This document shows, piece by piece, positions 7,361 to 44,131 of a DNA stretch of 64,000 nt; positions within the stretch are counted from its first letter, which is position 1, and the number at the start of each line of letters is the position of its first letter. This DNA is from an uncultured Gemmatimonadota bacterium (lineage in GTDB: Bacteria; JAAXHH01): assembly GCA_951812955.1 (NCBI GenBank), contig OX638340.1:32001-96000 (forward strand). Reading direction: 5' to 3'. The notes under the pieces were generated by a model. The model was not told the origin of the DNA. It did no database searches and worked only from the letters and a program-made list of their open reading frames with translations. A program made the translations under genes and the position numbers.

Positions 7361-7465
7361 CGGCGCGCAACGGCCCACACGGCTACTGCGCGGCCGTTTC
7401 CTCACCGCTTCCGGTTCATCCCACATCGAGGCCGGTACCGCATCAAGTTCGGTACCACATCAAGG

Positions 7466-9060: not shown

Positions 9061-9096
9061 GTCTTTCTCCCTGTCTCAGCCGGCAGCGGTACCCGT

Positions 9097-9984: not shown

Positions 9985-10030
9985 GGCCTTCACCTCCCGT
10001 ACTTCAAGGCGCCATCCGCAATACGCCAAT

Positions 10031-25300: not shown

Positions 25301-25787
25301 GCATGGCCACTGTGCGGCGTGCCGCACGGGCGTACAGGTGTCCTGCATTGTCCACCGGCCGAGGCGCCGCGCCCATGCGTGAAACCCAGGGCATCCGCCG
25401 TACCAGCATGGCACAGAGCGAATCGATCGTTTGTATTCGAAGGCGCGCGGGATGCTCGGCCAGCCGCCAGTCCAGCGCGTCGTTGCGGGCAACGGCATCC
25501 CTCGCAAGCTGCCAGGTATGGATTTCGTGAGGCGTCGCAGGGCGCGGTCCCGCGGCGCTTCTCAGGGCCGCGACGATCCGATGGCGCATCTCCGCGGCCG
25601 CCTTCCTGGTAAAGGTAATGGCCACGACGGCCTCCGGACGGTCCACCTGTGCCAGCAAGGCCAGGTATCGCTGTATAAGCAATTCGGTCTTGCCGGACCC
25701 CGCGGGCGCCTGGACGATGAACGACCGGGTATGGTCGAGCGCTTGTAGGCGTTGCGCCTGGTCTGCCACGCGTTCAGCCACGGTCAT
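22380..25787 (-). CDS. addA: Double-strand break repair helicase AddA (UvrD-type helicase with a C-terminal PD-(D/E)XK nuclease)
   Basis: AGSGKTELLIQRY Walker A and UvrD motifs. C-terminal IIDYKTS nuclease motif. Start set at the internal ATG (MTVAERV), which reduces the overlap with addB to 14 nt. Confidence 0.85.
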   Translation of the reverse strand: MTVAERVADQAQRLQALDHTRSFIVQAPAGSGKTELLIQRYLALLAQVDRPEAVVAITFTRKAAAEMRHRIVAALRSAAGPRPATPHEIHTWQLARDAVARNDALDWRLAEHPARLRIQTIDSLCAMLVRRMPWVSRMGAAPRPVDNAGHLYARAARRTVAMLDADETPPDVTGALSRLLSHLDNHFGRVERLLSIMLGTRDQWMRHLSDPANPGAMSESAAPRKHEALRRDLESSLRLVIESALEHVRSAFAEQHRNETVELAGFAAENLRAENRASAIDACIGLSGFPGSDAESLPCWIGFAELFLTAQGTRRRAVNRNHGFPPTDAGRAAKERLARIDLDPVFAESLHELRSLPAPRFEDGQWDVLNALMLLLPVAVAQLRLVFREEGCVDFTEIGIGARAALGPDKVPTDLARSLDFHIRHLLIDEFQDTSQSQYGLLTSLIRDWRPGDGRTLFLVGDPMQSIYGFREAEVGLFLQARKNGVGAIRPIPLALSVNFRSYPRVVVWVNRALRDAFPPDEDILSGAVTYEPSVAFKSEKADSCVRFHPFLVRDQDAEAERVVEVISEAQAERPGETIAVLVSARSHLTGIVSALRENGKRFRAVEIDALGDRPVVRDLMSLTQALLHPGDRLAWLAILRAPWCGLTLKDLEILVGGNAASAVWDLLQDRERRERLSPDAVSRIGRLIPIFADAFTLRGRLPPRRLVEGAWTALGGPECLETRTEREDASAFLDLLERAQDGLGIPDEKEFADDVERLFAPSDVEAGGDVQLLTIHRAKGLEFDTVILPGLGRLPRAEDPKLLLWHEYARGDRSRLLLAPIRATGGDKDPLYAYLGGIESRKRDHERTRLLYVAATRARKCLHLLGHAETDPERGTLKTPGSRTLLARIWNAVEPEFQSMMKDRGEQEPEEDLADAKPRGVPLRRLVAGWTPGPLPENVDLKPRLDPSDPVGHESAHPTFEWVTELQRRVGVVVHRMLQRMYAPDLLNFREDTLRIALRQEGLAGEKLDEAVARATSALGNTVADERGRWILTRHPSDERELALTTFLDGRIQRYVVDRTFVSEGRRWIIDYKTSAHTGGDLEGFLDNEQRRYRDQLEGYASVLQSMYSGPVNLGLYFPMLQGWRAWTYTGNPR

Positions 25788-28452
25788 CCTCCGGTTCCTC
25801 CGTCCCCTGTCCAATTCGGCACAGCGACGGCAGCGCGCAGTGCCTGCAGGTCTGAGCCGGGTCTTTGGGATCCACATGGGCCCGGCCCTCCCGGAAGTCG
25901 CGGCCGAGGCGGTCCAGCACCGTCCTCCAGTCGCCTATGGTCTGTTCCATCGGCGGCTGCTCCTCGGGTACCCGGACCCCCGGCACGATGCCCGGGGACT
26001 CGGCCAACCCCCTGAATCCGGCTTCTCCCGTCCTCAGCCTGGCGAACACGACACCCGCTACCGGCGCATCCGCGCAAACGGCGTATATGGGCAGCTGGGG
26101 ATCATCCGGTCTCGCGCCTTTCCAGTCTGATGGCCCGCATTCGCCGGTCTTGTAATCGAGGATGACCAGTTTCCCGTCCTCCAGGCGATCCACCCGGTCC
26201 GCCCGTATATTCACCTCGATGCCGCCGACTTCAACCGTCCGTCTTTCCTCCTGGTCGACGACCGTGAAGGGCTGCCGAAGGCGTTCCAGGCGCAGCCAGT
26301 CTCCGATGACGGAAATCAACCTGGCCTGCTCGATTTCCGCGAACCGGGGATTTCGCAGGATCCGGCCGCCCAGCATGCCCCGGACTTCGGGTTCGACGTG
26401 CGAACGCACGATTTCCGTCAGCTCCTCTTCAGTCACTTCGAGCAGCCCCCCGTGAGACTTGAGCCGTCCCCACACCCGTTCGAGAACGCGATGGACGAGC
26501 AGTCCCCGCTCGAGTGCGTTCAGTCCGGATTCAGGTTCCTCCAGCGCCCTGGCGCCAAGGCGCATTTCTGCAAATGCCTTGAATGGACAGGCCGCCTGGA
26601 GCTTGAACAGGAAGGTCCCGCCCCCGAGCGCCATATCGTCGCACGGCGGTCCGTAGTGGTCGTCCACCATCTCCAGCACGGAAGCGCTTCGGAGTCGTTC
26701 CCCGTCACCGGGCGACAGCTGGATCCCCAGTTCAGCAGCCGAGGTTTCGGGCAACATGCTTACGAGCGGGCTGACGCGCAGGTCCGTGTCCTCTTCCCGC
26801 TCCGGATAGCTGACGACGACGGAACGCGCGGCCGAAAGAAGGCGTCCTGTGAGCGTCCGGGTGAGTTCGAGTTCCCGTTCAGGCGACGATCCGGGGAGGT
26901 CGTAACGGCGTTGAAGACGAAGTGGAATGAACGGATCCGGTGCGGGATCGGCCGGCCACGCGCCGTCATGCATGCCCATCATCCAGAGCCGGTCGAAACG
27001 CAGGCCCGAGCTTTCTAAAACACCCAGAATCTGCACGGGGGCCGGCGTGGATTCCGGTTGAAACAACCTGGCCGAAGCGAGATTTCTCAGCATGGACACC
27101 GCCGCGTGGCGTGTTACGCGGCCGGACACGGCGTCCAGACCGGCCAGCTCGGAGAGCAACTCGTGCCAGACTTCCAGGGTCTGGTATTCGATACTGTCGA
27201 GCGTGCGGTCACCGGGCCATCCAATGTCGCGTAGGAACCCCGACAGGACCGGAGCCCAGTCGCTTGGCAGCCGCGGGGCCTGAATCGCCTTGTACTTCTC
27301 TGCCCATGTCCCACACAGGGACGTGAATACGGGACACCCGTCGGCGTCCCCTCGTCTGCCGGCCAACCCGATCAACTCCGATATGGAGACATCCGGTGCT
27401 CCTCGGGCGCGCAGAGCGGCGTCCAGCATGGCCCGGCGGGTCATTTCCTCCGCGGCCCCGGGTAGAAACGGAGACCGGAGTACACGGCCCGCAAGCTCGA
27501 CGGCGATATCCCCGGGGTCGATACCGAGGAACAGCAACGCCGTCTCGATTACGGGGTATTCATCGAGAGGCAGCCCCAGGGAGATGTTGAAGCATCGCGC
27601 CGGGTCGAGGTCAGGCCGGAGCCGGTCGCGGGGATGAAACACCTCGCCGAATACGCGCTCGATCTCACTTCTACGCCGTTCCAGTCCGGGCACGATGATG
27701 CCGATTCGGTACGCCGGGTCATGGGCGTCCGGATCGATTTCCACACACCCGCGGGCCCATTCTGCGGCGGCACGGAGCTCGCGGCCGGCGTCGGCAAGGC
27801 CCAGGCGCGCGGCGTCGCCGGCTTCATCAGGGCGCGCGCTTTCCCGGATCTCCACGCCGCGCCTTGCGAGGGCGTCGATCAGGCTCTGTTGGACAGGCGA
27901 GAGTTCCAGGAATCCCGCGAATTCGACTTCTTCGGGAACGGGAAACGCTTCCTGGTCGATGAGGTCACCCACAGCCGCGGTCAGTTCGGCGTTCGAAATC
28001 CAGTCGTTGCGGCGGCAACGATCGCGAAACGCTTCGGCCCAAGACAGAAAGGTCCGGGCGTCCGCGGATTCATTCCACGCCTCGTCGTCGACCGGCAGCG
28101 CCCAGCCGCACAGATGGTCCCAGGACCTGGTGGCGGCCTCAACGGTCGAAGGGACGTCCAGCAGGCTTTCAGATTCTACAGGCCCATCAGGCCCGGATCG
28201 AATGATGTTTTCCCAAATCAACCGTTCTTCAGCCGGCCGGAGCAGGCGTGCCAGCGTGGCCGGGTGATCGTAGAACAGCCCGTTCTGCCAGGTCTCCGAA
28301 AGCCATGCGGAGAGCGGCAGGATCTGTGCGGTTGGCCACGTGGTTTGCCCCGCCGTCTCCTGGTCCCGGTCATGGCTCAGGCGGAGATCGCGTGCGAGGC
28401 GCGTGGTCGCAGTGATAACGGTCATGGAGGCAATATCCGGATTACACGGCAA
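25774..28452 (-). CDS. addB: Double-strand break repair protein AddB (inactive helicase-like domain plus Fe-S PD-(D/E)XK nuclease)
   Basis: C-terminal ILDYKTGE nuclease motif and the Cys cluster CRHCALPSLC. Immediately upstream of addA on the same strand. Confidence 0.8.
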   Translation of the reverse strand: MPCNPDIASMTVITATTRLARDLRLSHDRDQETAGQTTWPTAQILPLSAWLSETWQNGLFYDHPATLARLLRPAEERLIWENIIRSGPDGPVESESLLDVPSTVEAATRSWDHLCGWALPVDDEAWNESADARTFLSWAEAFRDRCRRNDWISNAELTAAVGDLIDQEAFPVPEEVEFAGFLELSPVQQSLIDALARRGVEIRESARPDEAGDAARLGLADAGRELRAAAEWARGCVEIDPDAHDPAYRIGIIVPGLERRRSEIERVFGEVFHPRDRLRPDLDPARCFNISLGLPLDEYPVIETALLFLGIDPGDIAVELAGRVLRSPFLPGAAEEMTRRAMLDAALRARGAPDVSISELIGLAGRRGDADGCPVFTSLCGTWAEKYKAIQAPRLPSDWAPVLSGFLRDIGWPGDRTLDSIEYQTLEVWHELLSELAGLDAVSGRVTRHAAVSMLRNLASARLFQPESTPAPVQILGVLESSGLRFDRLWMMGMHDGAWPADPAPDPFIPLRLQRRYDLPGSSPERELELTRTLTGRLLSAARSVVVSYPEREEDTDLRVSPLVSMLPETSAAELGIQLSPGDGERLRSASVLEMVDDHYGPPCDDMALGGGTFLFKLQAACPFKAFAEMRLGARALEEPESGLNALERGLLVHRVLERVWGRLKSHGGLLEVTEEELTEIVRSHVEPEVRGMLGGRILRNPRFAEIEQARLISVIGDWLRLERLRQPFTVVDQEERRTVEVGGIEVNIRADRVDRLEDGKLVILDYKTGECGPSDWKGARPDDPQLPIYAVCADAPVAGVVFARLRTGEAGFRGLAESPGIVPGVRVPEEQPPMEQTIGDWRTVLDRLGRDFREGRAHVDPKDPAQTCRHCALPSLCRIGQGTEEPEDDRG

Positions 28453-32943: not shown

Positions 32944-33622
32944 CCGGGAGCCCGGGGCGCGATGCACGAACCATATATCCAGATTAAACTCATCCAAAAA
33001 CATGGCGCCAAGATTCCGGGGTTTTATTGGGTACGGGTATGGTTCGGAACTGATCAGACTTGACAACAACTTAGTTCAGAGATTAAACTGATGTACAAAT
33101 AACTTATAGAACGCGTCCAGGCCGTTCTCGCCTGGGCACTTGTATTTACACCGTAACAGGATCAGGCGGAACGATGATTCGGACGGTAAGACGCGGTATC
33201 GGTACGGTCGTGATTTGGTTGATCACAACGCTGGTTCGATTGGGGAAACGGTTAATGCGGAATCGGAAACGAGGCGTTGCCTAGCGGAGGATGTGGCGCG
33301 GGCAGCACGGTAGGCAACGAGGGTCGAACCGGAAATCGGATGACGATTGGCAAACGGCCGGTAGTAACGTTAATCACCGATACGATATGCCAGCCGGGGG
33401 GGTGGTACAATACCCGGCGGCGATACAATAGCCGACTACCACATCGAGTATGACTCGCGAGATGGGACCACAAAAGGCGGAAGGATTCGCCGGTTGTGGT
33501 TTTTTTTGTGCGTGGATCCCGGCTCGGTACCTTAGTCATCAAACAGCGTACTTATTCCGAGAACTATACCGATGCTTCCGCTCAATAGATATATAGTCGA
33601 CATACAAAACCATATTGAGACT

Positions 33623-34693
33623 CTATTGACGAGCATTCGTCAGGTCTTCCAATTCATCTTCTTTGTAGGTGGCAGGTACCCATTCACGCGACAGGTATGG
33701 CTTGTCAATTTCGTCCAACTGTAATGCATCACGGTACCATTTGGGTAGGCCAGCTGTCGGCGGATTATCTGGATGGTAAATCGGCCGGTTCCATTGCGGC
33801 ATGCCGACTTCCGGCCAATGATCCTTGTCGTACTTCATAGGATATACCCACCAGAGTCCCAAATTAGATTCAACCAGGAAAATCTCGTCAGGCAAATAAG
33901 TACGCCCAGCAAGTAGAGTTGGTAACTGGTTCCCGATGAGGTCGAATCTCGTATGAGCTGCGTCCTGGCTTTCTAAAACCAGGACGGTTCGTGCTCCATC
34001 AGCACGACACTTCGCCAACTTTGGAAACTTGTCAGCAAAAGCTCTACGGATCCGTTCCGTCCGACAGCTTTCCAAGTCTTCGGGATAGTCAAGTACCGTT
34101 TGAACAAAGCCCGGCTTTCGTCCTGCCTTAATCCCATTCCGCCACCTCAGCAATTCGACTGTACAGTTTATACACGAGAGATCGTCTTTGATGCTATCGT
34201 CGGGAAAACAGTAAAGGCTGATTGGGATTCCATGGCAGTCGATAGGTAAAGACAGTAAGGTATTCCTCTCGTACATGGTCTGGGCACTGCTTAGAATCCA
34301 TTCGGCAAGGTTCTTCAAAGCCCTAACTCGTTTGACTTTCCCCCTGGGCAGACAAACATCTGTTGGTACTTGAAGCACGTAGTACATGGGATCTGGTAAC
34401 TGGCCGGCGAGGCTTTGTATCAAGTACTGTCTAATCTCCACGACGGTTAACTCAGTTTTAATATTGTTCTCAAAGGGTTCAATTATTGTGTGCTCAATCG
34501 CGTATTCTTGTTCACCCAATTTCATACGCAATTCCACTGGCGGCCCTACTCGATCACTCTCAGGATGACGTATTTCAGATCGTTTCTTCCGAGTGCGTCT
34601 TTCCATAGTCTTCACAACCGCGTCGCACGCCTTGCCCTCGTTTTTAGGTACGATTACGTGCGGTTTACTGTATGGAGTCTCGTTATTCTTCAT
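33623..34693 (-). CDS. Hypothetical protein at the island edge
   Basis: 356 aa, low GC, no recognisable motifs. Standalone gene with intergenic regions of 450 nt or more on both sides. Confidence 0.4.
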   Translation of the reverse strand: MKNNETPYSKPHVIVPKNEGKACDAVVKTMERRTRKKRSEIRHPESDRVGPPVELRMKLGEQEYAIEHTIIEPFENNIKTELTVVEIRQYLIQSLAGQLPDPMYYVLQVPTDVCLPRGKVKRVRALKNLAEWILSSAQTMYERNTLLSLPIDCHGIPISLYCFPDDSIKDDLSCINCTVELLRWRNGIKAGRKPGFVQTVLDYPEDLESCRTERIRRAFADKFPKLAKCRADGARTVLVLESQDAAHTRFDLIGNQLPTLLAGRTYLPDEIFLVESNLGLWWVYPMKYDKDHWPEVGMPQWNRPIYHPDNPPTAGLPKWYRDALQLDEIDKPYLSREWVPATYKEDELEDLTNARQ

Positions 34694-35149
34694 CGTTTCC
34701 TAATCTAAATGTAATTAACGGAAAATCGCTGTTGATGGCTGAGTCAGACCCTTTCACCAGTCTTCCGATCCGGTAGCCTTCTGTAGCCTTCTACTGATTA
34801 CAACTTCCAAACCTAATCCAGGAGCCATGCGCCTTGTGGAGATTGCCCCTCTGCAGTAGGGCGGCAGGTCACGAAAGAATCCGTGGACCACTCCAGTAAG
34901 ATTTCACGTAGCATCGCCTACTCGCCCTGACTGTCAAATGCAACCTAGCCATCGGTAACACCAAGCGTGATTCACTAAAGACGGTAAGCCCATGAAGTCT
35001 TCACGGTTCAAAGAAACTCCGAATTCCCTTATCTACGGGTTTTAAAGGGTTATGTAGGGGAGGTGTTGGCAACTGCTAATGGATGTTTCAGAGGGTGGGA
35101 ATGCGGTGTTGAGGCAACTCATAATAGTCCTGGTGATATCTAATCCCCA

Positions 35150-35635
35150 TCACAAGTTGTTTGTACGTCGGAGTAATTTGGATGATACCCAACTCCATGC
35201 TTTCCAAACAAACGAGGTTTTAGTTAGTAAGCCTTGCTCTTTATCAGTCTCCATACGGTCATCGGAGTTGAAAAACCGGTTGATTTCCAATCTATGGTTA
35301 CTTCGCTCCTCAAGAATCTCACGTGTAGACCATCGGCGTGACCAATGAACTTTGTTATTTTCGATCCAATAATGTGATTGACACTCCTCACTCCAATTTC
35401 CCACAGAGGGCCGGAGACTTATAGATAACCCATTGTAAATAAACGCCCACCCAGTGGGATGTAACGGTGTGTTTATCTCGCTACCACACCCACATGCACA
35501 TTTATGGATTACAGTACGGTACTTCAGCGAAATGTAAATTCGACCGTCTTCTAAACGGTTGGGTACAACATCCGAGAAGACCGGGGTAAATTCAGTCGTT
35601 TTTGAAGACCGTTCTAATCGTTTTGTTTTGCACAC
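35150..35635 (-). CDS. Small Cys-rich (HKCACGCG) predicted metal-binding protein, last gene of the E1/Ubl operon
   Basis: 161 aa. Its start overlaps the E1 gene stop by about 22 nt. CxCxCx cluster plus two further Cys residues. Confidence 0.45.
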   Translation of the reverse strand: MCKTKRLERSSKTTEFTPVFSDVVPNRLEDGRIYISLKYRTVIHKCACGCGSEINTPLHPTGWAFIYNGLSISLRPSVGNWSEECQSHYWIENNKVHWSRRWSTREILEERSNHRLEINRFFNSDDRMETDKEQGLLTKTSFVWKAWSWVSSKLLRRTNNL

Positions 35636-36831
35636 TCGACGTAGTCCCGGTTTATTATCTTGTTTCCGTCCATTATATATCCGGAATCACCCTCATGAAC
35701 TAAGTCTTGAAATACACCTCGGATTTTCTTCCATTTTATTACTGCCAATGCTGCATTGAGGGCGTTTAGTTCTGCCAATTGTATGTTTCTTTCGTACTCT
35801 CCAACATCTCCTCCTGCCATATCGATACGATTCTTCTCTGTCACATGGCCCCTATTGCCCGGTTCACTAGTAGTCGTTCGGAGTATCCCGCCTAGTCTAT
35901 CTCCTTCACGATAAATCCCCATCCCGGTATCAATACAAACGCTCTCGGCATCTTCGCAAATCCTAAATATAGATTGTTTTATGGCATGGCCATCAATACA
36001 CAGGAAAACTGTATCGTGTCCTTTTAACTCATTAACGTTTTCCTCCACAATCTTAGTGGGATGTGCAACAATACCGCGACGCATACGACTGTAGCGTTCG
36101 AAATGAAACTCTGATTTGATGGGGCCTCCTTCCAATTCTTCAACCGCTACTGCTCCCGGTGCTCGAAATGAGTTGTGCTGAAGAAAACGGTCATCGTCAT
36201 ACAGATGGATCTCTTTAACCCATGTCTTAGCAACATAGTCGAGAACGTAAGCCCCGGTCCCACCTAAACCAACAATTGCTACAGTCTCCCCTTCCAATCT
36301 CGAAGATATATCTGTTGTATTTTGACGGGCTGACGCTGTTTCCATAAACGCGAATACATTCGAATTGCTCTCGGATTTCGCGACTTTCCACTTCTGCGCC
36401 GACGTTGACGAGTCGATTTTCCTAGCTTCTCGCGTTATGATTTCAATATAGGTTCTTACTTTGTGTTCATAATCTATGTACCGCCCGCCTTCCGGCTTGG
36501 CTGAAAACATATAGGTTAACTTTAGACCATTGCTCAGAATCTGGTTGTGGCCGCTTTCACCCAGAACCTCAAGCTTCTGTGAATTCCCGTCATACGGAAA
36601 TTCTCCTGTCCAATAGGCCACGTGGTCACCTGGTTGACTAGTTCTCTCGCCTCTGAGGTCAAGTTGCATTACTAATGTTGCCTCTGCAATTCCTCCAACA
36701 CTGGTAACATAAGGCACATCTTGTATTAGAAGGTAGCCATCTATAAATCGGATTGTATATCCGGATTCCTCTATGCGTTTCAGATCCGTATTACGAGCGA
36801 TCAGTGCGTGTGACATTGAATACTGTCCCAT
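35614..36831 (-). CDS. E1-like ThiF/MoeB-family adenylyltransferase with a cysteine-free N-terminal domain of about 190 aa (possible E2/UEV-like)
   Basis: ThiF Rossmann motif VAIVGLGGTGAYVLDYVAKTWVKEIHLYDDD. The N-terminal half contains no Cys. Confidence 0.7.
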   Translation of the reverse strand: MGQYSMSHALIARNTDLKRIEESGYTIRFIDGYLLIQDVPYVTSVGGIAEATLVMQLDLRGERTSQPGDHVAYWTGEFPYDGNSQKLEVLGESGHNQILSNGLKLTYMFSAKPEGGRYIDYEHKVRTYIEIITREARKIDSSTSAQKWKVAKSESNSNVFAFMETASARQNTTDISSRLEGETVAIVGLGGTGAYVLDYVAKTWVKEIHLYDDDRFLQHNSFRAPGAVAVEELEGGPIKSEFHFERYSRMRRGIVAHPTKIVEENVNELKGHDTVFLCIDGHAIKQSIFRICEDAESVCIDTGMGIYREGDRLGGILRTTTSEPGNRGHVTEKNRIDMAGGDVGEYERNIQLAELNALNAALAVIKWKKIRGVFQDLVHEGDSGYIMDGNKIINRDYVECAKQND

Positions 36832-37060
36832 CCTTTATCTTCACATTTTCGCCTTCGCTCAAACCACCTTCTTGTTCACGTCCACCACCTTCATAAAACA
36901 GCACTGTGTAACTAATTAAAGCGCCACGACCACCATCCGGGTAAGCTAAATCCACTATTTCGTCAAAAGTCACTTCGTCATGGTCTACGGTGTACGGACG
37001 TGCATTGATTATGATATCAAAACCCTTGTTCTCTAGACTTTGCTGAGGTTCTTTTTCCAT
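36791..37060 (-). CDS. Small beta-grasp ubiquitin-like protein, multiubiquitin-family-like
   Basis: About 89 aa from the internal ATG (MEKEPQQ). Pattern FDIIINARPYTV..VTFDEIVDLA...ENVKIKDGTVFNVTRTDRS resembles the Multi_ubiq family. Its 3' end overlaps the E1 start. Confidence 0.45.
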   Translation of the reverse strand: MEKEPQQSLENKGFDIIINARPYTVDHDEVTFDEIVDLAYPDGGRGALISYTVLFYEGGGREQEGGLSEGENVKIKDGTVFNVTRTDRS

Positions 37061-37089
37061 ATTAATGGCTTCCGCCTCCTTATCGGGAT

Positions 37090-37629
37090 TCAGGCTATGT
37101 CCCTGATGCCCAATGTCAACCCTCCTGAGCGAACGAATTCCCTCCATAGAGGTGACAACAATTGAGCTGCAACTGGAGCTTCACGAGAAGAAAGTATAAT
37201 TTGTAATTCTCTCCTTTCATCTAAAGGTGCCTCTTTCCATATATTGTACAAATCCCAGCAGTTTCCGTCCGTCAAAATACCGTACCTTACCCCGACCTCA
37301 GTACAGTATGTCAACATCTGAGTGCGGTGTGTGTTGAGATCCTCGTTCAGTTTTTTTGCCTCGACTAGAACCAGTGGCTTTCTATCTTCTCCAAGTAATG
37401 CGTAGTCAACACGCTGATTCGCTTGATTTCCTGTACGGAATTCAACTTCTACATGCTCTACGATGCTAACGTCCCAAGCAAGGGCTTTCAATACCGGATC
37501 CACTAATACATTCCTTGTCCTTATCTCATTTTTCTGGAGGTATTCTCCGTGTTTTACTATTACCTCACGTGCTCGTTGTAGCGTGCTTACCAAGGGTTCT
37601 AACAAATCAGTCATAAACTCCCTCACCAC
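37090..37629 (-). CDS. PD-(D/E)XK restriction-endonuclease-like protein (HsdR N-terminal-domain-like), first gene of the operon
   Basis: 179 aa. RVDYALLGEDRKPLVLVEAKKL gives the D...EAK catalytic motif, followed by QMLTY...GILTDG. Confidence 0.6.
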   Translation of the reverse strand: MVREFMTDLLEPLVSTLQRAREVIVKHGEYLQKNEIRTRNVLVDPVLKALAWDVSIVEHVEVEFRTGNQANQRVDYALLGEDRKPLVLVEAKKLNEDLNTHRTQMLTYCTEVGVRYGILTDGNCWDLYNIWKEAPLDERRELQIILSSREAPVAAQLLSPLWREFVRSGGLTLGIRDIA

Positions 37630-37982
37630 TAAGTGAGCGATTCCCCAGTTGAACTTCTCTACTATAATATACGGCTAGCGGATCTGTACATATTACTTAA
37701 CGTATGATTCGTATGGAACTCTGTCAAATAGATTTCAACTTGAATACAATGTCATTGCTGAATAGATCGTAGCCATATCTCATCTACACCATTGAGTAGC
37801 ATATTGGATTACGCGCGGCGGTTTGGTAATATCGCGCATTCAGGTAGTTGGCGATGCACTTGGCACGCCGCACGGTCCCTGCAGATACGCCACAGAGCCA
37901 ACTCAGGCATGCACGAGTCATTTAACATCAGCCCTAGAAAATGCCCTTGACATCATATGATTTATGAGTCATGTTATGATGT

Positions 37983-38351
37983 ATGAAATGGGAAGTCGAT
38001 TTCCATCCGGCGTTTGATCCCGAGTTTGCCGCCATGGCACTGAAGGTGCAGGACGAACTGCTTACACAAGCAAAGCTCTTGGAGGAGTTCGGACCAACAT
38101 TAGGTCGTCCGCGGGTGGATACGCTAAATGGTTCGCGGCATGCTAATATGAAGGAACTTCGTTTTACTATGACTGGCGGAGTCTGGCGGGTCGCATTTGC
38201 TTTCGACCCCGAACGTAAGGCCATGCTACTGGTTGCCGGCGATAAATCGGGAGTCGGTGAACAACGGTTCTACCAGCAACTGATCAGGAAGGCGGATCAC
38301 CGCTTCGATCTACATCTTGAACTGTTGAAAGCTGAGAGGAGGCCAAGATGA
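37983..38351 (+). CDS. Type II toxin, RelE/HigB-like (phage Gp49-like addiction-module killer)
   Basis: 122 aa. KELRFTMTGGVWRVAFAFDPERKAMLLVAGDK matches the HigB/Gp49 family pattern. Confidence 0.7.
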   Translation: MKWEVDFHPAFDPEFAAMALKVQDELLTQAKLLEEFGPTLGRPRVDTLNGSRHANMKELRFTMTGGVWRVAFAFDPERKAMLLVAGDKSGVGEQRFYQQLIRKADHRFDLHLELLKAERRPR

Positions 38352-38698
38352 GTACGTTGACGGACAGAATGGACAAGCTGTCCCCGTCCCGACGGAAGAA
38401 GGTAGAAGAACGGGCCAGGGCGTTGATCGCCGAAGAAATGTCGCTACGGGACTTGCGCAAGGCTCGAAAGCAGACGCAGATGCGGGTCGCCGAGAAGCTC
38501 GGGATCAATCAGGAAAACGTGTCCCGCCTTGAACAGCGCAGTGATCTCTTGATTTCCACCCTCAGCGGCTATGTCGAGGCGATGGGGGGTAAACTGAGTC
38601 TGGTGGCGGAGTTTCCGGACCGGCCGCCAGTGGCGCTGACTGGCATTGCGGCACTCGACGACCTTTTGGAGCGGCCTGCAGAATCTCGTACCGGATGA
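38348..38698 (+). CDS. HTH (XRE-family) antitoxin, HigA-like
   Basis: 116 aa. HTH region MSLRDLRKARKQTQMRVAEKLGINQENVSRLEQ. 4-nt ATGA overlap with the toxin gene. Confidence 0.7.
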   Translation: MSTLTDRMDKLSPSRRKKVEERARALIAEEMSLRDLRKARKQTQMRVAEKLGINQENVSRLEQRSDLLISTLSGYVEAMGGKLSLVAEFPDRPPVALTGIAALDDLLERPAESRTG

Positions 38699-38964
38699 AG
38701 AGAGGATCGCGATATGGTCGCAGGCGGGTCGCTAAACGTCGAAAACACACCGGTTCCCGGGTGTCGCGAATCTCAGATTTGGGATATATAACTACAGTGA
38801 GGCGGGACCGGCCTTGGCCTTAGTGGCAAAACGCCTACGATCGATCAGTTCGCATTCCACGCTTGTGAAGATTCTCTTGCACAGCACGTTGTCATAGTAG
38901 TCGTTTACCGAGCCCATAGATGGCCAGATGCCAGCCGTGCAAACCGGTGCCCGTCGGAGCGAAC

Positions 38965-40140
38965 TCATCCACTAGGCGTTCGTCCACCGACCTCCGTCGA
39001 GATTTGTAGAATATACATCAGTGACGGATCGGATTTGAGGAGAATGGCCCGCAGCTGTTCGTCGGTTAGCTTTGTCTCCAATTCGTGGACCCGGTTGAAA
39101 AACTCGATCAGCTTCACCAGTGCTTTGGTGTCTTGGATCACGAATTCAGACAGCGGATCGTTGTACAACTCCCGACAGACGTACAGTACCCTCGCTCGAC
39201 GGGTTGGCTTGCCCTCATGTAGCAGATCCTTCTGATTAGCTAGGCTCAGAATCCATGCAGTAACTAGATCGTCGGGGGCTAATCGTCGGAGCAAATGGTT
39301 CCACAGCTCCCTGAGGGAGGTCAGAATGTGCCGTGCCCGGTCGGCACTGTTTCCATTCAGGGCATCTCGAGCGCCGATGTATGGCCCAGCGAGACTTGGA
39401 TCGACCTGTTGCAGCAGAATGATGCAGTCGGATGTTTCTAACTCTGCCTCGGCGACAAACTGGAATTCCGTTTCGGCCTCTTCTTCGTCCCGTTCACCCC
39501 AGGGGCGAAGAGTTTTGAGCGCGAAGCTGGTAGTGTAGATTTCACGAGTGGCGCCTGGCAAAACGAAAGCAGGTAAGCGCGTAATGTCCGAGACCTCCCG
39601 CAGTGAACCGGCCAAACTTCCATATGAGGCAGCCACCTGGGCAATCGAACTCTCCAGCCCTGAAATGGCGGGCATCTTGATTTGGAATTGACTCCCTATG
39701 GCCTTGAAATCGATGTTCGCCATGAGTCGTTCCGTGGCGATCAATTGCAAAGAAGTATCGCCCAGGGCCAACTTAGCGGATGCTTGAAGCTGGAAAAGTT
39801 GGGAAACTCCCTGTTGAAGAAGATTCGACTGGTCAAGCCAGGATTCATGAGTGGTATGCAGACTCTCGGCAATCCAGTTAGAAGCGGTAGTCTGTTTGAT
39901 CACATCATGCCAGTGTTGATTGGCGTTGGCGATCTCTTTAATCCCGGCCACTGCTTCAGGTATTTCGAGGGCACGACTGATTTCCATTTGATGGAGACGG
40001 AATGGTTCTATCGTGCGTTCTAACTGTTCTATAACGCCTAGGTAGGATGGCTTGGCCAAACGGTTGGAAGCCTCCATGTCCTGACGGAGTTTGCCGATGG
40101 CGGATTTTGCGGACATCAGATCTTCGGAGAGAATATCCAT
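38965..40140 (-). CDS. Hypothetical protein, third gene downstream of SIR2-HerA
   Basis: 391 aa soluble protein with no recognised motifs. 83 nt downstream of herA on the same strand. Confidence 0.45.
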   Translation of the reverse strand: MDILSEDLMSAKSAIGKLRQDMEASNRLAKPSYLGVIEQLERTIEPFRLHQMEISRALEIPEAVAGIKEIANANQHWHDVIKQTTASNWIAESLHTTHESWLDQSNLLQQGVSQLFQLQASAKLALGDTSLQLIATERLMANIDFKAIGSQFQIKMPAISGLESSIAQVAASYGSLAGSLREVSDITRLPAFVLPGATREIYTTSFALKTLRPWGERDEEEAETEFQFVAEAELETSDCIILLQQVDPSLAGPYIGARDALNGNSADRARHILTSLRELWNHLLRRLAPDDLVTAWILSLANQKDLLHEGKPTRRARVLYVCRELYNDPLSEFVIQDTKALVKLIEFFNRVHELETKLTDEQLRAILLKSDPSLMYILQISTEVGGRTPSG

Positions 40141-40223
40141 ATTTTGATGTTAGTCCCGGAGTTGTCAAATTGCAAGGCTGTGTGGATGTTTGGGTATGCT
40201 GGTACCTTCAACCTCAATTGAAA

Positions 40224-41915
40224 TCATCGGCGCTGATATCTCCAACGCTTAACAACATCTTGAATTTCCGAGTCAGGAGTTGCATCGTTTTGCCACCCCT
40301 TATCGAAGTCAATGTCATTTGATTTCGGTAGCTGATCAGGATTTAAATCACGTATTAGGATGCGCGACGGCAACATTGCAGCTTGGCCAACGAAAATTGC
40401 CTCTTGCCTCCGTAAACCAGAAAGCATCTTTGTCAGACCAGACATCGAATCTGGTAGAATGGATCGAACATGCTCCCTGTCGGCGTCATTGGTGATTCGC
40501 ATAACAATCCAGCTATTGCATTGTGAAAGAACCGTTGCCTCAACTTCGCTTGGGCGCTGGGATACCAACAGGAGCCCTACACCATACTTTCGACCTTCCT
40601 TAGCAACACGCCTGATTGCTTCTTGAGCAGCCTCATATTGCGCTTCGCCCCGATTTGGAACGTAGCGATGAGCTTCTTCACATACCAGTAAAACTGGGTC
40701 AGATTCGCGCTCTGATTGGGTTTGCCAAATCTTCAGATTGAATAAAGTTCGAGCAATTACCGCACTTGATACACCGGCTACTTCATTGGGGACACCGGAC
40801 AGATCTACTATTCTTGGTTGAGACCCATCCCCGATAAGTTGCTTGATAACAGTAAGAAAAGGATCGTTATTTTCCCATTCTGACATCATGAATCGGAGTC
40901 GAGCATCGGTCATTAAGACTTCGAGTTTTTGGAGTATCGAGTTATGAGAATCTTGTTTGCTGAGCGCAGTTGGCTTATCCGCTTCAATCTTTTCTATAAG
41001 CCTCGATAACTTGTATGGTACGGGGGAATCAACAGTTATGAGATTGACATCAAGACCTAGCTGATGCGCACCTTCTTCGCGGGCGTAGATTAAGGCTCTC
41101 TTTACGATGTTAGCTTGTGAGGTCGCAACAAATTCAGTTCTTCCGATCAACAAGGCAACCGTCTCTTGAAAGTTCAAGAGCCAGTATGGAAGTGTTAGTG
41201 TTCCGTCATCAGAGGAAAGTTTAGTATGATCAGTAAATGCGCTGCCGTATTCACCATGGGGGTCGAGTATAATAACCCTGGGCTTCCATTTCGTATATGA
41301 TCTAGTGTCACCTCTATCAAGAATACTGTGAATGATAGCTGCGACCGTACCTGACTTGCCAGCGCCAGTGGAGCCGAGAACGGCTGTGTGTTTACCAAGT
41401 AGTTCATTCAAATCTGCAAAACATGGGGTCCCGCCTGAACCTACATGCTGCCCGAGCTGAACAACGGCACTTTTCGCTTTCCCGTAAATAAAACGCAATT
41501 CAGCTTTTGGAGTCAGATAGACAGTTTGCTGTGGGAGTGGATAGGTTGATACCCCACGTTCAAAAAAAAGCTTCCATTCACTAGATGTCCCATGAATCCA
41601 TTCGCCTTCGCCGAACAGGTCTGCTTCGACGATTCTTTCATCCGAAGATGATGCTGACACCAATCCTCGTTCTGCTTGAAATTCTGATTTCATCCTTAGT
41701 CGGCCGACCAACGCGTAGACGGTTTGACGCCCGAAATGGACTTTGACAATGGAACCAAATTGTCCGATGGGATAGGTTTCTCCCGCATACACACGCGAGA
41801 GTTCAGAAAGAGTCGGATTTAACTCGGCAACAAGGTGAGATCCATCAACTTCAATTATCTTGCCGATTGCCAGATTCTCAATTGGCTCATTGGGATTGCG
41901 AGTCGAAACACTCAT
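40224..41915 (-). CDS. HerA/FtsK-like ATPase (DUF87) of a SIR2-HerA defence pair
   Basis: Walker A LGSTGAGKSGT. Walker B LLVCEEAHRY, followed by LLLVSQRPSEV. 563 aa. 4-nt start/stop overlap with the sir2 gene. Confidence 0.8.
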   Translation of the reverse strand: MSVSTRNPNEPIENLAIGKIIEVDGSHLVAELNPTLSELSRVYAGETYPIGQFGSIVKVHFGRQTVYALVGRLRMKSEFQAERGLVSASSSDERIVEADLFGEGEWIHGTSSEWKLFFERGVSTYPLPQQTVYLTPKAELRFIYGKAKSAVVQLGQHVGSGGTPCFADLNELLGKHTAVLGSTGAGKSGTVAAIIHSILDRGDTRSYTKWKPRVIILDPHGEYGSAFTDHTKLSSDDGTLTLPYWLLNFQETVALLIGRTEFVATSQANIVKRALIYAREEGAHQLGLDVNLITVDSPVPYKLSRLIEKIEADKPTALSKQDSHNSILQKLEVLMTDARLRFMMSEWENNDPFLTVIKQLIGDGSQPRIVDLSGVPNEVAGVSSAVIARTLFNLKIWQTQSERESDPVLLVCEEAHRYVPNRGEAQYEAAQEAIRRVAKEGRKYGVGLLLVSQRPSEVEATVLSQCNSWIVMRITNDADREHVRSILPDSMSGLTKMLSGLRRQEAIFVGQAAMLPSRILIRDLNPDQLPKSNDIDFDKGWQNDATPDSEIQDVVKRWRYQRR

Positions 41916-43072
41916 CTTTCACCTCCAAGCAGGCGGGTCAAGTTTTCAAATTTCCACCAAAGTAGGTCGGTGTCGGATGGTGCTTTTTTGCTGCCGTGAA
42001 AGAAGCCAAGATTAGCAAAAATAAGTACTTGCTCGGTTATGGAGTCATCATCATGCCATCTCTTAAGTAGGCCTTTTGGTTCATCATCAGAGGTAAACAC
42101 CACGACGGTAAGACGACCGTCAGATTCACGTAACGCCCGGTCGATTTCGAGATTGATGTGTGAATCACCAAAGCGGTACCCGCACGTAATCAGTATTTTT
42201 TGCGAACCTGAAACAGCCGTTAGTGCTTTCCGCCCATATTCTGCCAATTGAGCATAGGGGTCTCTTTGAGTTTCACGGTATTTGGTGGATGCTGGCCAAA
42301 TGAGAATCTTGTTTTTACCCCCGGATTGTACTTTGACATTACCGGAAACTCGGCGAGGGAGTGGATCACCATCGAACTCGCACCAGTTTATTGAACCGTG
42401 CAGTTTGAAGATCCTCGACGAGAGTCCATCACGCTCAAAATCCGCAGGATTCCACCATCCGGTGACTCCGCCTTCCAGACCATCTGAAAAGGAAACTCGC
42501 TCAAGCGCGAGTGCATCTTCAAGAAGCGTGTCGTAGTTGAGGCAGAGATAGTCCACACGATCAAAGTTGCCCGTTTTACCAGGCCGAATTGGGCGATGAA
42601 CCGCCTTTACGAATTTGCGATGAACCACTACATCGATTTGCTCGTCATTGTGCTCGATTATATTGGAAATGATACGCTTTATATCTTCTGCAGATTCCCT
42701 TAGTTGCTGGCCAGAATATCGATTGTCTTTGATAGTGATCTGGTCATCGGTTGCGCCTCGCTCCGCCCTTCTTTCAGCGATGGCCAGAAGGTCGATTATT
42801 TCACTAAGGTAGTCCTCAATATCTGGATCACTCGCACCGGTGAAACCTTCCTTAATTCCCTTGAGGATCTCTGTGGTATAGTCACTCAAAGCACCTATTT
42901 CCAGTACTTTAGTAGTTAGTTCTTCCATCAATGGTAAACCCGCGCATTTGCTACAACCTGCACCAATTAGGAACACTTTCCCATGCTGGACCATAAGTTC
43001 GTCTAGCGTATCATAAGCTTCAACTAATTGAGGGGTATCCCATATTGCGTCAAGATTGTCAGGTGCGCTCAT
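41912..43072 (-). CDS. SIR2-family (DHS-like NAD-binding) protein, putative NADase effector
   Basis: VFLIGAGCSKCAGLP (a sirtuin GAGxS-like motif) and KLHGSINW. 386 aa. Confidence 0.75.
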   Translation of the reverse strand: MSAPDNLDAIWDTPQLVEAYDTLDELMVQHGKVFLIGAGCSKCAGLPLMEELTTKVLEIGALSDYTTEILKGIKEGFTGASDPDIEDYLSEIIDLLAIAERRAERGATDDQITIKDNRYSGQQLRESAEDIKRIISNIIEHNDEQIDVVVHRKFVKAVHRPIRPGKTGNFDRVDYLCLNYDTLLEDALALERVSFSDGLEGGVTGWWNPADFERDGLSSRIFKLHGSINWCEFDGDPLPRRVSGNVKVQSGGKNKILIWPASTKYRETQRDPYAQLAEYGRKALTAVSGSQKILITCGYRFGDSHINLEIDRALRESDGRLTVVVFTSDDEPKGLLKRWHDDDSITEQVLIFANLGFFHGSKKAPSDTDLLWWKFENLTRLLGGER

Positions 43073-43405
43073 ATTAACCCTTTCTCATTTTATCATACTC
43101 CAATTTCCTGACTTCATTGCTATTCATGTGTCGCTATGCCATTAACTTCAACAACACGTCGTCTAGACCAAACCGATCATTCAAGGATTTAGCTATCCGA
43201 ACGAGTTTCGGACTTGGTCCGGAGTAAATAGAGAATCAGTCGCCCAAAGTGAGAGAATGTGTGACGGACAGGGAAAATCGACGATGTGGAACGGTTGTTC
43301 GAGAGGACATTAACAGACGCAATCTCTTAGAAACAAGTGCAAAAAACCCGTCATCCCCGAGAATGAGCCAGACCCTAGAGAGACGGGTTGTCTTTTTAGA
43401 ATTGA

Positions 43406-43766
43406 TGGAGGTGGGGGGAATCGAACCCCCGTCCGAAAGTGCCTAAGCGGAAACTTCTACATGCGTAGCCTGTTGTTTAATCTCGTTCCGGAGAACTCCA
43501 GCAGGCAGGATTTAACCGGAACCAGCCTCAGTTGAGTCTCGCCTGGCGCCCTGAGGCGCGACGCCCGGCCAGCCTGCTTTATCGACGCTTTTGACCATCC
43601 CGCAGGCGGGGCTGATCAAAAACGGGCCGGCCTAAGTTACCTTAGGCAGCCATTGCATACGAAGGTTCGTCTGCAGATAAATTGTTCCCAATGGTTTTAC
43701 GAGGTTATCGGGGACCTCGGCACGCGATTCCCGCCGCATCCACTCCCGTCGAATCCTTTCACCCCC
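43406..43766 (-). ncRNA. ssrA: tmRNA (SsrA); the predicted tag reading frame encodes ADEPSYAMAA followed by TAA
   Basis: On the minus strand the 5' end reads GGGGGTGAAAGGATTCGACGGG and the 3' tRNA-like end reads TTTCGGACGGGGGTTCGATTCCCCCCACCTCCA. The internal frame is GCA GAC GAA CCT TCG TAT GCA ATG GCT GCC TAA. Confidence 0.85.
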
Positions 43767-44032: not shown

Positions 44033-44131
44033 TCGCAGGCGTAGCATAATAAGCGATTACACCTACTTCGTCAACCGATTTCCGGTTAGGACAGGATGGC
44101 CAATGAGCACGAACGCGGGGCCCGCGAAACC

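What the first reader, a model, noticed from the sequence alone, without database searches (positions are those of the whole stretch)
35150..37629. Four-gene E1/ubiquitin-like operon whose first gene is a PD-(D/E)XK nuclease; no JAB or canonical E2 is evident
Seen in sequence: four tightly packed or overlapping minus-strand genes in low-GC DNA. They are (1) a 179-aa HsdR_N-like restriction-endonuclease-fold protein with VDYALL...LVLVEAKKL; (2) an approximately 89-aa beta-grasp protein whose pattern (IIINARPYTV..VTFDEIVDLA...KIKDGTVFNVTRTDRS) resembles the multiubiquitin family; (3) a 405-aa ThiF/E1-like protein (GLGGTGAYV...HLYDDD) with a cysteine-free N-terminal domain; (4) a 161-aa Cys-rich HKCACGCG protein. 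Established: prokaryotic E1/E2/Ubl/JAB operons described by Iyer, Burroughs and Aravind, and the Bil/Bub-type systems, act in anti-phage defence; E2_B-type domains fused to E1, multiubiquitin proteins and a predicted metal-binding protein are known to co-occur. Inference: this is a candidate ubiquitin-like-conjugation defence system in which a nuclease effector replaces the usual JAB peptidase, an architecture I do not recognise as described. The Ubl lacks a C-terminal Gly-Gly (it ends RTDRS) but has internal EGGG/EGG, so proteolytic maturation may be needed. Placement inside a defence island beside SIR2-HerA supports an immunity role.
Basis: partly seen in the sequence, partly recalled or inferred. 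Interest (0 to 1): 0.85.

Follow-up and report, generated by a model that had tools for sequence, protein, structure and literature searches.

The report
Bub ubiquitin-like operon with extra nuclease
This is a known bacterial ubiquitin-like conjugation operon (Type II Bub) that carries one extra, consistently linked restriction-type nuclease gene, which could be a first clue to what these still-unexplained operons do.

Summary
The four tightly packed minus-strand genes are real. Three of them are a textbook Type II Bub (formerly 6E.2/DUF6527) operon:
- BubA: one Multi_ubiq beta-grasp, 89 aa.
- BubBD: a DUF6791 E2 domain fused to a ThiF E1, 400 aa.
- BubE: a DUF6527 zinc-binding Ser-His protease, 161 aa.

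- The cysteine-free domain is the E2. It uses a serine, and the E1 uses a tyrosine.
- BubE is the peptidase, so no JAB is expected.

The Ubl needs no maturation. All 81 Type II BubA tails examined end T-x-x-S, mostly TD[KRQ]S, and so does the crystallised E. coli BubA.

What remains new is the first gene, a 174-aa stand-alone HsdR_N-type PD-(D/E)XK nuclease with an intact E/D/ExK/QxxxY site.
- It sits directly upstream of bubA in all 9 contexts of its clade that I examined.
- A second, larger family of short nucleases (at least 209 clusters) sits directly downstream of bubE in all 6 contexts examined.
- Neither published Bub catalogue lists a nuclease.

Verdict: a new variant of a known system. 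The nuclease's role as effector is inference only.

The parts
37090..37614 (-). Stand-alone HsdR_N-type PD-(D/E)XK nuclease, 174 aa. The longest ORF runs to 37629 from a GTG. Predicted catalytic residues, in 174-aa numbering: E58, D70, E85-A-K87 and Q99xxxY103.
   Evidence: Pfam HSDR_N and HSDR_N_2. The catalytic residues are invariant in 32-36 homologues. The AF2 model has pLDDT 93. Its best PDB matches are the nuclease domains of BpuSI, DrdV, V. vulnificus HsdR and BsaXI. The 174-aa form is in the public collection.
36791..37060 (-). bubA: ubiquitin-like protein with a single Multi_ubiq beta-grasp, 89 aa. It ends ...NVTRTDRS.
   Evidence: Pfam Multi_ubiq 3.6e-14. It matches the third beta-grasp of the E. 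coli ZDHYS365 BubA, PDB 9cd2, end to end at E 3.5e-7. The C-terminal Ser is shared by 81 of 81 Type II BubA.
36337..36816 (-). bubBD, N-terminal E2 domain (DUF6791, cysteine-free). The catalytic candidates are S105 and K107 in the F-S-A-K-P motif (400-aa numbering; S110 and K112 in ORF numbering).
35614..36336 (-). bubBD, C-terminal ThiF-type E1 adenylation domain. It has a GxGGxG loop, R218 and the crossover-loop Y341 (ORF numbering R223 and Y346).
   Evidence: Pfam ThiF, and NCBIfam PRK06153.1-4 at 4.8e-130. The best fold and profile hits are Citrobacter BubCD. R and Y are invariant and align to E. coli R219 and Y342.
35150..35635 (-). bubE: DUF6527 serine protease, 161 aa. C4 zinc site C46, C48, C50 and C85; catalytic dyad S77 and H88; hydrophobic C-terminal tail.
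   Evidence: Pfam DUF6527 9.9e-23. The residues are conserved in 80-82 of 82 sequences. The family was characterised as a Ser-His protease.
37615..37982 (.). Intergenic region between the operon and the divergent Gp49/HTH pair. This is the presumed promoter region of the four-gene operon. A Shine-Dalgarno-like GGTGAGGGAG lies upstream of the nuclease ATG.
   Evidence: Sequence read. One sigma-70-like match lies at 37690-37661, but such matches are no more frequent than in shuffled sequence, so the promoter is not established.

Best explanation
[quoted passage not shown] That gene encodes a stand-alone HsdR_N-type PD-(D/E)XK DNA nuclease.

What is shown for the family elsewhere, and supported here by residue conservation:
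- BubBD adenylates the C-terminal serine carboxylate of BubA.
- BubA then passes through a Tyr oxyester on the E1 crossover loop (Y341) and a Ser oxyester on the E2 domain (S105).
- BubA is finally transferred to lysines of target proteins.
- BubE, a zinc-stabilised Ser-His protease, removes it again.

What is inferred here:
- The nuclease is co-transcribed with the Bub genes and works with them.
- Most likely it is the DNA-cutting output of the system. Restriction-type nuclease domains of this class are normally active only when other domains bring them together on DNA.
- So BubA conjugation, either to the nuclease itself or to a partner that recruits it, would switch it on or place it. BubE would reset it.
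- The setting, a low-GC island next to the tmRNA gene that also holds SIR2-HerA and a toxin-antitoxin pair, fits a role against phages or other invading DNA.
For: Identity as Type II Bub:
- Pfam Multi_ubiq, DUF6791+ThiF and DUF6527, all above threshold.
- NCBIfam PRK06153.1-4 at 4.8e-130.
- The same bubA-bubBD-bubE order in 78 of 80 GTDB loci.
- Structural match of the E1 domain to Citrobacter BubCD and of the N-terminal domain to Citrobacter BubB.
- BubA matches PDB 9cd2.
- All published catalytic residues are present and invariant.
- The system definition comes from the literature.

Linkage of the nuclease:
- All 9 contexts examined for its clade (window, L081, L082, L083, L164, L166, L168, L169, L171) have nuclease-bubA-bubBD-bubE. 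The nuclease-to-bubA spacing is -4 to +54 nt, and the flanking genes are otherwise unrelated.
- 17 of 40 nuclease clusters share their longest-contig length with close BubBD clusters, and identities fall in parallel: 80/89%, 68/70%, 51/63%.
- A second family of short HSDR_N_2 nucleases, 209 clusters and 28-34% identical to this one, lies directly downstream of bubE in 6 of 6 contexts: L013, L020, L080, L172, L173, L174.

The nuclease is probably active:
- E, D, ExK and QxxxY are invariant.
- E/D/ExK is invariant in 121 of 121 members of the second family.
- The model is confident and matches restriction nuclease domains.

Defence context: PADLOC SIR2 and HerA, and a Gp49/HTH pair.
Against: - No experiment links a nuclease to Bub. 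No Bub operon has yet shown phage protection.
- Most Type II Bub operons lack this nuclease. Only 3 of the 80 GTDB loci have it, and one close relative, L165, lacks it. It is therefore not required for the core reaction.
- Relatives of the nuclease at 45% identity or less are 300-400-aa proteins not next to Bub genes on the JGI contigs.
- I could not model complexes, so no physical contact between the nuclease and any Bub protein is shown.
- The promoter and co-transcription are inferred from spacing only.
- The 17 contig-length matches are indirect evidence.
Confidence: 0.6

Rival explanations
1. The nuclease-fold protein is a DNA sensor or targeting adaptor for the Bub machinery, not the killing effector. 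It would bind invading or damaged DNA and either trigger conjugation or bring BubBD to DNA-bound targets.
For: Other Type II Bub operons (the three-beta-grasp type) carry an M78-peptidase-UvrD-helicase-PDDEXK_1 protein upstream, and some a second PDDEXK_1 protein downstream. Bub operons are often linked to DNA-damage-responsive regulators. A 174-aa lone nuclease domain has no obvious specificity module of its own.
Against: The full catalytic set, E/D/ExK plus QxxxY, is invariant in both nuclease families. That argues for retained cleavage chemistry and not only binding.
Confidence: 0.2
2. The four-gene module is a DNA-damage or stress-response device, not an anti-phage system. Ubl conjugation would regulate DNA processing by the nuclease.
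For: The authors found no phage protection for any Bub operon and suggest a stress response as an alternative. Helicase-nuclease and M78 (CapP-like) partners recur.
Against: The island also holds SIR2-HerA, a toxin-antitoxin pair and a pP_pnuc_1 nuclease. Homologous modules sit among restriction, HEPN, AbiTii and transposase genes.
Confidence: 0.12
3. The nuclease is an independent gene, either a solitary restriction-like nuclease or mobile-element cargo. It merely travels next to the Bub operon.
For: Most Bub operons lack it. Related nuclease domains occur alone on plasmids and phages, annotated as type I restriction endonuclease or HsdR N-terminal domain proteins.
Against: 15 of 15 examined contexts of the two short-nuclease families are glued to Bub operons, on the same strand, despite unrelated flanks. 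The nuclease and BubBD diverge in parallel. Two different gene orders both preserve adjacency.
Confidence: 0.06
4. One reading: a previously undescribed E1/Ubl system that lacks an E2, in which a nuclease replaces the JAB peptidase and the Ubl must be cleaved to expose Gly-Gly. A related alternative is a MoaD/ThiS sulfur-carrier pathway.
For: There is no JAB and no canonical cysteine E2 by sequence. hhalign against UBE2D2 gives probability 0.15, and the E2 domain has no PDB sequence hit.
Against: The N-terminal domain matches the solved BubB E2. BubE is the peptidase. The C-terminal Ser is universal and is used as such in vitro. The only ThiF/MoeB-family NCBIfam hits are weak matches of the shared adenylation domain, far below their cut-offs. 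No biosynthetic family hit was found among the neighbouring ORFs scanned.
Confidence: 0.02

Closest known systems
Type II Bub operon (6E.2 / DUF6527 operon; BubA, BubBD, BubE), e.g. E. coli ZDHYS365 (Ye, Gong, Chambers, Corbett 2024, bioRxiv 10.1101/2024.11.21.623953)
   Same: Same three genes in the same order with overlapping reading frames. Same domains (Multi_ubiq; DUF6791 E2 fused to ThiF E1; DUF6527). Same catalytic residues: E2 Ser+Lys, E1 Tyr and Arg, BubE C4 site plus Ser-His. Same T-D-[KR]-S Ubl tail. No JAB. Located in a mobile island.
   Different: BubA here has one beta-grasp (89 aa), against three in the E. coli protein. An HsdR_N-type nuclease gene precedes bubA, and no such gene is listed in the published operon table. 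No CapW or CapH/CapP regulator is adjacent; a Gp49/HTH pair sits there instead.
Type II Bub operons with a short HSDR_N_2 nuclease after bubE
   Same: Same Bub core plus a roughly 165-aa lone PD-(D/E)XK nuclease with the same E/D/ExK site, on the same strand and adjacent.
   Different: The nuclease is the last gene, not the first. It is only 28-34% identical and falls in a separate clade in a simple neighbour-joining tree. These operons are often preceded by HTH plus M78 peptidase genes.
Nuclease domains of Type I HsdR and Type IIG/IIB restriction enzymes (BpuSI 3s1s, DrdV 7lvv/7lo5, V. vulnificus HsdR 3h1t, BsaXI 8w2p)
   Same: Same fold (Foldseek E 4e-4 to 2e-3, probability 1.0). Same D...ExK site, with a QxxxY spacing that I recall (from memory, not checked here) as an HsdR nuclease motif.
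   Different: There is no translocase, methyltransferase or specificity domain, and no hsdM or hsdS next to it. It is a lone 174-aa domain embedded in a Ubl-conjugation operon.
Type II CBASS Cap2/Cap3 and Bil (BilABCD) systems
   Different: Those systems use cysteine thioesters and JAB peptidases. CBASS conjugates a CD-NTase, not a Ubl. Here there is no CD-NTase and no JAB, and PADLOC E1-E2 hits are weak and cover only the adenylation domain.

Membership tests
Type II Bub (6E.2/DUF6527) operon | Ubl (BubA) with a Multi_ubiq beta-grasp and the family's C-terminal tail | tested here: met
   Pfam Multi_ubiq 3.6e-14. End-to-end match to the last beta-grasp of PDB 9cd2. The tail ...TRTDRS fits the pattern; 81 of 81 tails end in Ser.
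Type II Bub (6E.2/DUF6527) operon | E2-E1 fusion protein (BubBD) | tested here: met
Type II Bub (6E.2/DUF6527) operon | Cysteine-free catalysis: an E2 serine (E. coli S106) with an accompanying Lys and His, an E1 crossover-loop tyrosine (Y342) and an adenylation arginine (R219) | tested here: met
   S105, K107, R218 and Y341 (400-aa numbering) are invariant in 25 homologues. Two histidines, H65 and H118 (ORF numbering H70 and H123), are also invariant, but which of them accompanies the serine was not resolved. The Ser and Lys are also invariant in 11 distant E2 domains. The offset to E. coli numbering is consistent through the Kluyvera orthologue. The N-terminal domain has no Cys.
Type II Bub (6E.2/DUF6527) operon | BubE: DUF6527 domain with a C4 zinc site and a Ser-His dyad | tested here: met
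   Pfam DUF6527 9.9e-23. C46, C48, C50, C85, S77 and H88 are conserved in 80-82 of 82 sequences.
Type II Bub (6E.2/DUF6527) operon | No JAB/JAMM peptidase; gene order bubA-bubBD-bubE | tested here: met
   No JAB hit in any of the ORFs. The same order is found in 78 of 80 GTDB loci.
Type II Bub (6E.2/DUF6527) operon | ATP-dependent BubA conjugation through oxyester intermediates | not testable with these tools
   Shown for the E. coli and Citrobacter systems only.
Type I restriction enzyme R subunit (HsdR) | PD-(D/E)XK nuclease domain with D...ExK and QxxxY | tested here: met
   HSDR_N and HSDR_N_2 hits. E58, D70, E85-A-K87 and Q99xxxY103 are invariant. The fold matches 3h1t and others.
Type I restriction enzyme R subunit (HsdR) | SF2 translocase domains, with hsdM and hsdS partners | tested here: not met
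   The protein is 174 aa and consists of the nuclease domain only. The neighbouring ORFs are bubA and a Gp49/HTH pair. The NCBIfam equivalog scores are far below cut-off, 23 against 550 bits.
Bil (BilABCD) system | Separate cysteine E2, JAB peptidase and a two-adenylation-domain E1 with a Cys domain | tested here: not met
Type II CBASS (Cap2/Cap3 plus CD-NTase) | CD-NTase, a Cap2 E2-E1 with catalytic cysteines, and a Cap3 JAB | tested here: not met
   PADLOC E1-E2 models hit only the adenylation region, at 1e-6 or weaker. There is no CD-NTase or JAB ORF.
MoaD/ThiS sulfur-carrier pathway | A Gly-Gly tail on the carrier, with MoaE, ThiG or other biosynthetic neighbours | tested here: not met
   The tail is TDRS. 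The small protein hits Multi_ubiq only. The only ThiF/MoeB-family NCBIfam hits are weak matches of the shared adenylation domain, far below their cut-offs. No biosynthetic family hit was found among the neighbouring ORFs scanned.
SIR2-HerA defence system (neighbour, context claim) | Adjacent SIR2 and HerA genes | tested here: met
   PADLOC SIR2 1.7e-68 (41912-43072) and HerA 1.6e-138 (40224-41915), overlapping by 4 nt.

The most novel reading that the evidence does not exclude
Nuclease-linked Type II Bub operons, in two gene orders and together at least about 250 protein clusters, are a distinct subtype. In it, ubiquitin-like conjugation through oxyester chemistry directly switches or places a restriction-type DNA nuclease. 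This would give the first identified effector, and possibly the first conjugation substrate, for any Bub system. It would also be the first bacterial case of a Ubl-controlled nuclease.
Probability: 0.35. Interest if true: 0.7.

Novelty: new variant of a known kind. Interest (0 to 1): 0.5.

Why it matters
Bub operons are biochemically remarkable because they ubiquitinate without cysteines. Their biological role is unknown: no targets, no effector and no phage phenotype have been reported.

A sub-family that always carries a catalytically intact DNA nuclease next to the conjugation genes gives a concrete hypothesis that can be tested by mutation. It proposes what the output is (DNA cleavage) and what might be modified (the nuclease or its partner). 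It also identifies a compact 2.5-kb module to clone.

Together with the helicase-nuclease partners seen beside other Type II Bub operons, it suggests that DNA is the common theme of these systems. If the nuclease turns out to be a passenger, the locus is simply one more member of a described family.

Tried and rejected
- PADLOC-DB 2.0.0 has no Bub models. BubA and BubE gave no hits, and BubBD gave only weak Cap2-type hits. It cannot classify this system.
The fold comparison succeeded instead.
- The Foldseek search of the whole BubBD model was dominated by E1 hits.
- I searched for attachment-site repeats of the tmRNA 3' end at the left island border. No shared 11-mer turned up and nothing convincing appeared in the repeat scan. 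No integrase was found among the island ORFs scanned.
- Promoter and terminator scans were no better than shuffled sequence, so I make no promoter claim.
- The JGI metagenome scan with the nuclease profile returned only distant 300-400-aa relatives with no Bub genes within the flanks held, many on short contigs. This helps define the short Bub-linked clade, but it does not measure its frequency.
The 3-of-80 frequency is therefore a rough figure, and the window's own clade was not sampled there.
- An apparently conserved 142-200-aa ORF upstream of bubA in L001-L003 has the composition of a wrong-frame translation and no Pfam hit. I rejected it as a gene.
- orf356 (33623-34693) recurs only in the near-identical contig L083 and weakly in L041. 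It is not part of the module.
- Literature searches for later Bub papers found only the two 2024 preprints.
Full report
**1. Observation**

The four minus-strand ORFs are present as described. They lie in a block of 0.44-0.51 GC, about 33-43.4 kb, inside DNA of about 0.62 GC.

Refined gene models:
- Nuclease: 37090-37614, 174 aa from the ATG. The 179-aa ORF begins at an upstream GTG.
- bubA: 36791-37060, 89 aa. The 118-aa figure is the longest possible ORF.
- bubBD: 35614-36816, 400 aa.
- bubE: 35150-35635, 161 aa.

The 174-aa and 400-aa forms are exactly the sequences held in the public protein collection, from a 3.81-Mb contig. Homologous contigs have bubA called at 89-93 aa. bubA and bubBD overlap by 26 nt, bubBD and bubE by 22 nt, and the nuclease stop is 29 nt from the bubA start. 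Both starts have Shine-Dalgarno-like sequences.

Pfam assigns each protein above the gathering threshold:
- HSDR_N and HSDR_N_2
- Multi_ubiq
- DUF6791 plus ThiF
- DUF6527

**2. What the core is**

A literature search for DUF6527 led to two 2024 preprints from the Corbett laboratory. They rename the '6E/DUF6527' operons Bub. They define Type II Bub as BubA (the Ubl), BubBD (an E2-E1 fusion) and BubE (a DUF6527 protein), typically without a JAB peptidase.

They show three things:
- The pathway runs on oxyesters: a tyrosine on the E1 crossover loop and a serine in the E2.
- DUF6527 is a serine-histidine protease with a C4 zinc site.
- E. coli BubA plus BubBD plus ATP forms conjugates, and these conjugates depend on R219, Y342 and S106.

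I tested each defining feature here.
- BubBD belongs to a family of more than 5,000 clusters.
- In an alignment of 25 members, the Gly-rich ATP loop, R223, Y346 and the F-S110-A-K112-P motif are invariant (ORF numbering; subtract 5 for the 400-aa protein).
- The serine and lysine are also invariant in 11 much more distant E2 domains.
- Alignment to the Kluyvera orthologue gives a constant offset, which maps these residues onto E. coli S106, R219 and Y342.
- The E1 half finds Citrobacter BubCD first, both by sequence profile and by fold.
- BubA matches the last beta-grasp of the crystallised E. coli BubA (PDB 9cd2) right to the C-terminus.
- BubE has C46, C48, C50, C85, S77 and H88 conserved in 80-82 of 82 sequences.
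- In 80 loci from GTDB genomes spanning bacteria and archaea, the bubA-bubBD-bubE triad is present in 78.
- RefSeq already annotates the E. coli version, including a 'ubiquitination-like system serine protease'.

The core is therefore a known system.

**3.

- 'No E2' and 'no peptidase' are features of the family, and both are already explained. The E2 is the DUF6791 domain, and the peptidase is BubE.
- The nuclease does not stand in for a JAB.
- The missing Gly-Gly is not a sign of maturation. All 81 Type II BubA tails I extracted end in serine, nearly all as T-D-[KRQ]-S. The crystallised E. coli BubA (9cd2) ends the same way.

**4. What is left: the nuclease**

*The protein.* It has an invariant E58, D70, E85-A-K87 and Q99xxxY103 (174-aa numbering). 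The QxxxY spacing is what I recall, from memory and not checked here, as an HsdR nuclease motif. Its AlphaFold model is confident (pLDDT 93). The best solved matches are the N-terminal nuclease domains of the type IIG enzymes BpuSI and DrdV, a Vibrio HsdR and BsaXI. It has no translocase, methylase or specificity partner, so it is not a restriction enzyme subunit.

*Its own clade.*
- A search of 5.8 billion protein clusters found only 40 relatives.
- 17 of these share their longest-contig length with the closest BubBD clusters, and identities fall in step.
- I inspected nine contexts: the window, L081, L082, L083, L164, L166, L168, L169 and L171. All show nuclease-bubA-bubBD-bubE on one strand, with -4 to +54 nt between the nuclease and bubA. 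The genes on either side are unrelated from contig to contig.
- Gene callers often missed bubE, but six-frame searches find it.
- One close BubBD relative (L165) lacks the nuclease.

*A second family.*
- In the GTDB set, only 3 of 80 loci carry a related nuclease, and there it follows bubE.
- Searching with that version found 209 clusters of proteins of about 165 aa.
- Three further contexts were all bubA-bubBD-bubE-nuclease. Two of the three (L173 and L174) are preceded by an HTH gene, followed in L173 by an M78 peptidase gene.
- E/D/ExK is invariant in 121 of 121 members.

*Relationship between the two.* In a simple neighbour-joining tree without bootstraps, the two Bub-linked groups are separate. 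The window's group nests among longer 300-400-aa proteins. The JGI contigs holding those longer proteins show no Bub genes within the flanks held, though many are short. One longer relative does lie 3.5 kb from a Bub operon. Whether the nuclease was recruited once or twice is open. Either way, adjacency has been kept in two gene orders.

**5. Mechanism**

- Shown for the family, and supported here by conserved residues: BubBD adenylates BubA, passes it through Tyr and Ser oxyesters, and attaches it to lysines. BubE removes it.
- Inferred: the nuclease is part of the same transcript and the same function.
- My preferred reading is that the nuclease is the DNA-cutting output and that BubA conjugation switches it on or places it. 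Nuclease domains of this class act only when other parts of their enzymes bring them together on DNA, and here no such parts exist in the protein itself.
- I give the identity about 0.95, the functional linkage about 0.8 and the effector model about 0.35-0.4.

Rivals:
- A DNA-sensing or targeting role. This is favoured by the M78-UvrD-PDDEXK_1 and PDDEXK_1 partners of other Type II Bub operons.
- A stress-response role instead of a defence role.
- Plain hitch-hiking. This is disfavoured by 15 of 15 linked contexts.

**6. Context**

The island abuts the 3' end of the tmRNA gene (43403-43766). It also holds:
- SIR2-HerA
- a pP_pnuc_1-domain protein
- a Gp49/HTH toxin-antitoxin-like pair, divergent from the operon

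The same pair and a 356-aa unknown protein flank the operon in the near-identical contig L083. No integrase or attachment repeat was found. BubBD relatives are rare on viral contigs: 6 loci in 2.9 million contigs.

**7. Novelty and score**

The core is already known. The consistent nuclease partner is not in the published operon table, whose accessory columns are only CapP, CapH and CapW. It is also not in the papers I could search.

I rate it a new variant of a known kind, interest 0.5. It is not surprising in kind, but it offers a direct experimental handle on the unanswered question of what Bub systems do.

Noticed in passing
L076:1803-5195 (also L028, L030, L046, L058, L060, L061, L066, L071); L046:7841-10495 and L060:7833-10490: Type II Bub operons of the three-beta-grasp kind (Kluyvera, Acinetobacter, Mesorhizobium and others) have, directly upstream of bubA, a protein of about 1130 aa that combines a Peptidase_M78 domain, a UvrD helicase and a PDDEXK_1 nuclease. 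Some also have a PDDEXK_1 protein of about 885 aa downstream of bubE. This looks like an AddAB-like helicase-nuclease pair attached to Bub.
   Followed up: partly
L013:7680-8204, L020:7679-8206, L080:8003-8554, L172-L174 around 5001-5500: A second, larger family of lone HSDR_N_2 nucleases of about 165 aa (209 clusters) sits immediately after bubE in 6 of 6 contexts. Two of the three newly inspected contexts (L173 and L174) are preceded by an HTH gene, followed in L173 by an M78 peptidase gene.
   Followed up: yes
L170:5001-5879 and 6823-10879: A 292-aa long-form relative of the nuclease lies convergent to, and 3.5 kb from, another Type II Bub operon. That operon is followed by three unannotated genes of 194, 354 and 213 aa.
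   Followed up: no
window 38965-40140 (-): A 391-aa protein with a pP_pnuc_1 domain ('predicted pPIWI-associating nuclease', 9.8e-21; PADLOC Aga_Nuclease 3.8e-7). None of the neighbouring ORFs scanned matched an Argonaute family.
   Followed up: no
window 37983-38351 (+) and 38348-38698 (+): A Gp49/HigB-like gene and an HTH gene, overlapping by 4 nt and divergent from the Bub operon. The same Gp49-type gene, followed by a small unannotated gene, flanks the operon in L083. They could be a toxin-antitoxin pair or a local regulator.
   Followed up: partly
window 33623-34693 (-): A 356-aa ORF, 456 nt downstream of bubE, with no family hit in Pfam, NCBIfam or PADLOC. It is conserved in L083 (8e-212) but not in other nuclease-Bub loci.
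   Followed up: partly
window 33000-43766: The low-GC island ends at the 3' end of the tmRNA gene, a classic integration site. I found no integrase and no direct repeat of the tmRNA end. A 20-nt inverted repeat (33327-33346 / 44068-44087, 95% complementary) brackets the island plus the tmRNA and the two tRNA-Lys genes.
   Followed up: partly
L022, L040, L052, L062 (DUF2188); L033, L035, L067 (DUF3892); L038, L041 (M78): Small genes recur directly upstream of bubA in other Type II Bub loci: DUF2188, DUF3892 and lone Peptidase_M78 proteins.
   Followed up: no
L081, L082, L164, L168, L169, L174: Gene calls stored with these metagenome contigs omit bubE, although a full-length bubE reading frame is present (E 1e-34 to 1e-51). 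Surveys based on called genes will undercount complete Bub operons.
   Followed up: yes
window 25774-28452 (-): An 892-aa protein with a C-terminal PDDEXK_1 domain lies outside the island, in high-GC DNA. It may be an AddB/RecB-like housekeeping nuclease.
   Followed up: no
window 43403-43766 (-): ARAGORN gives the tmRNA tag peptide as EPSYAMAA, which is short. The tmRNA itself is a full-length Rfam match of 196 bits.
   Followed up: no
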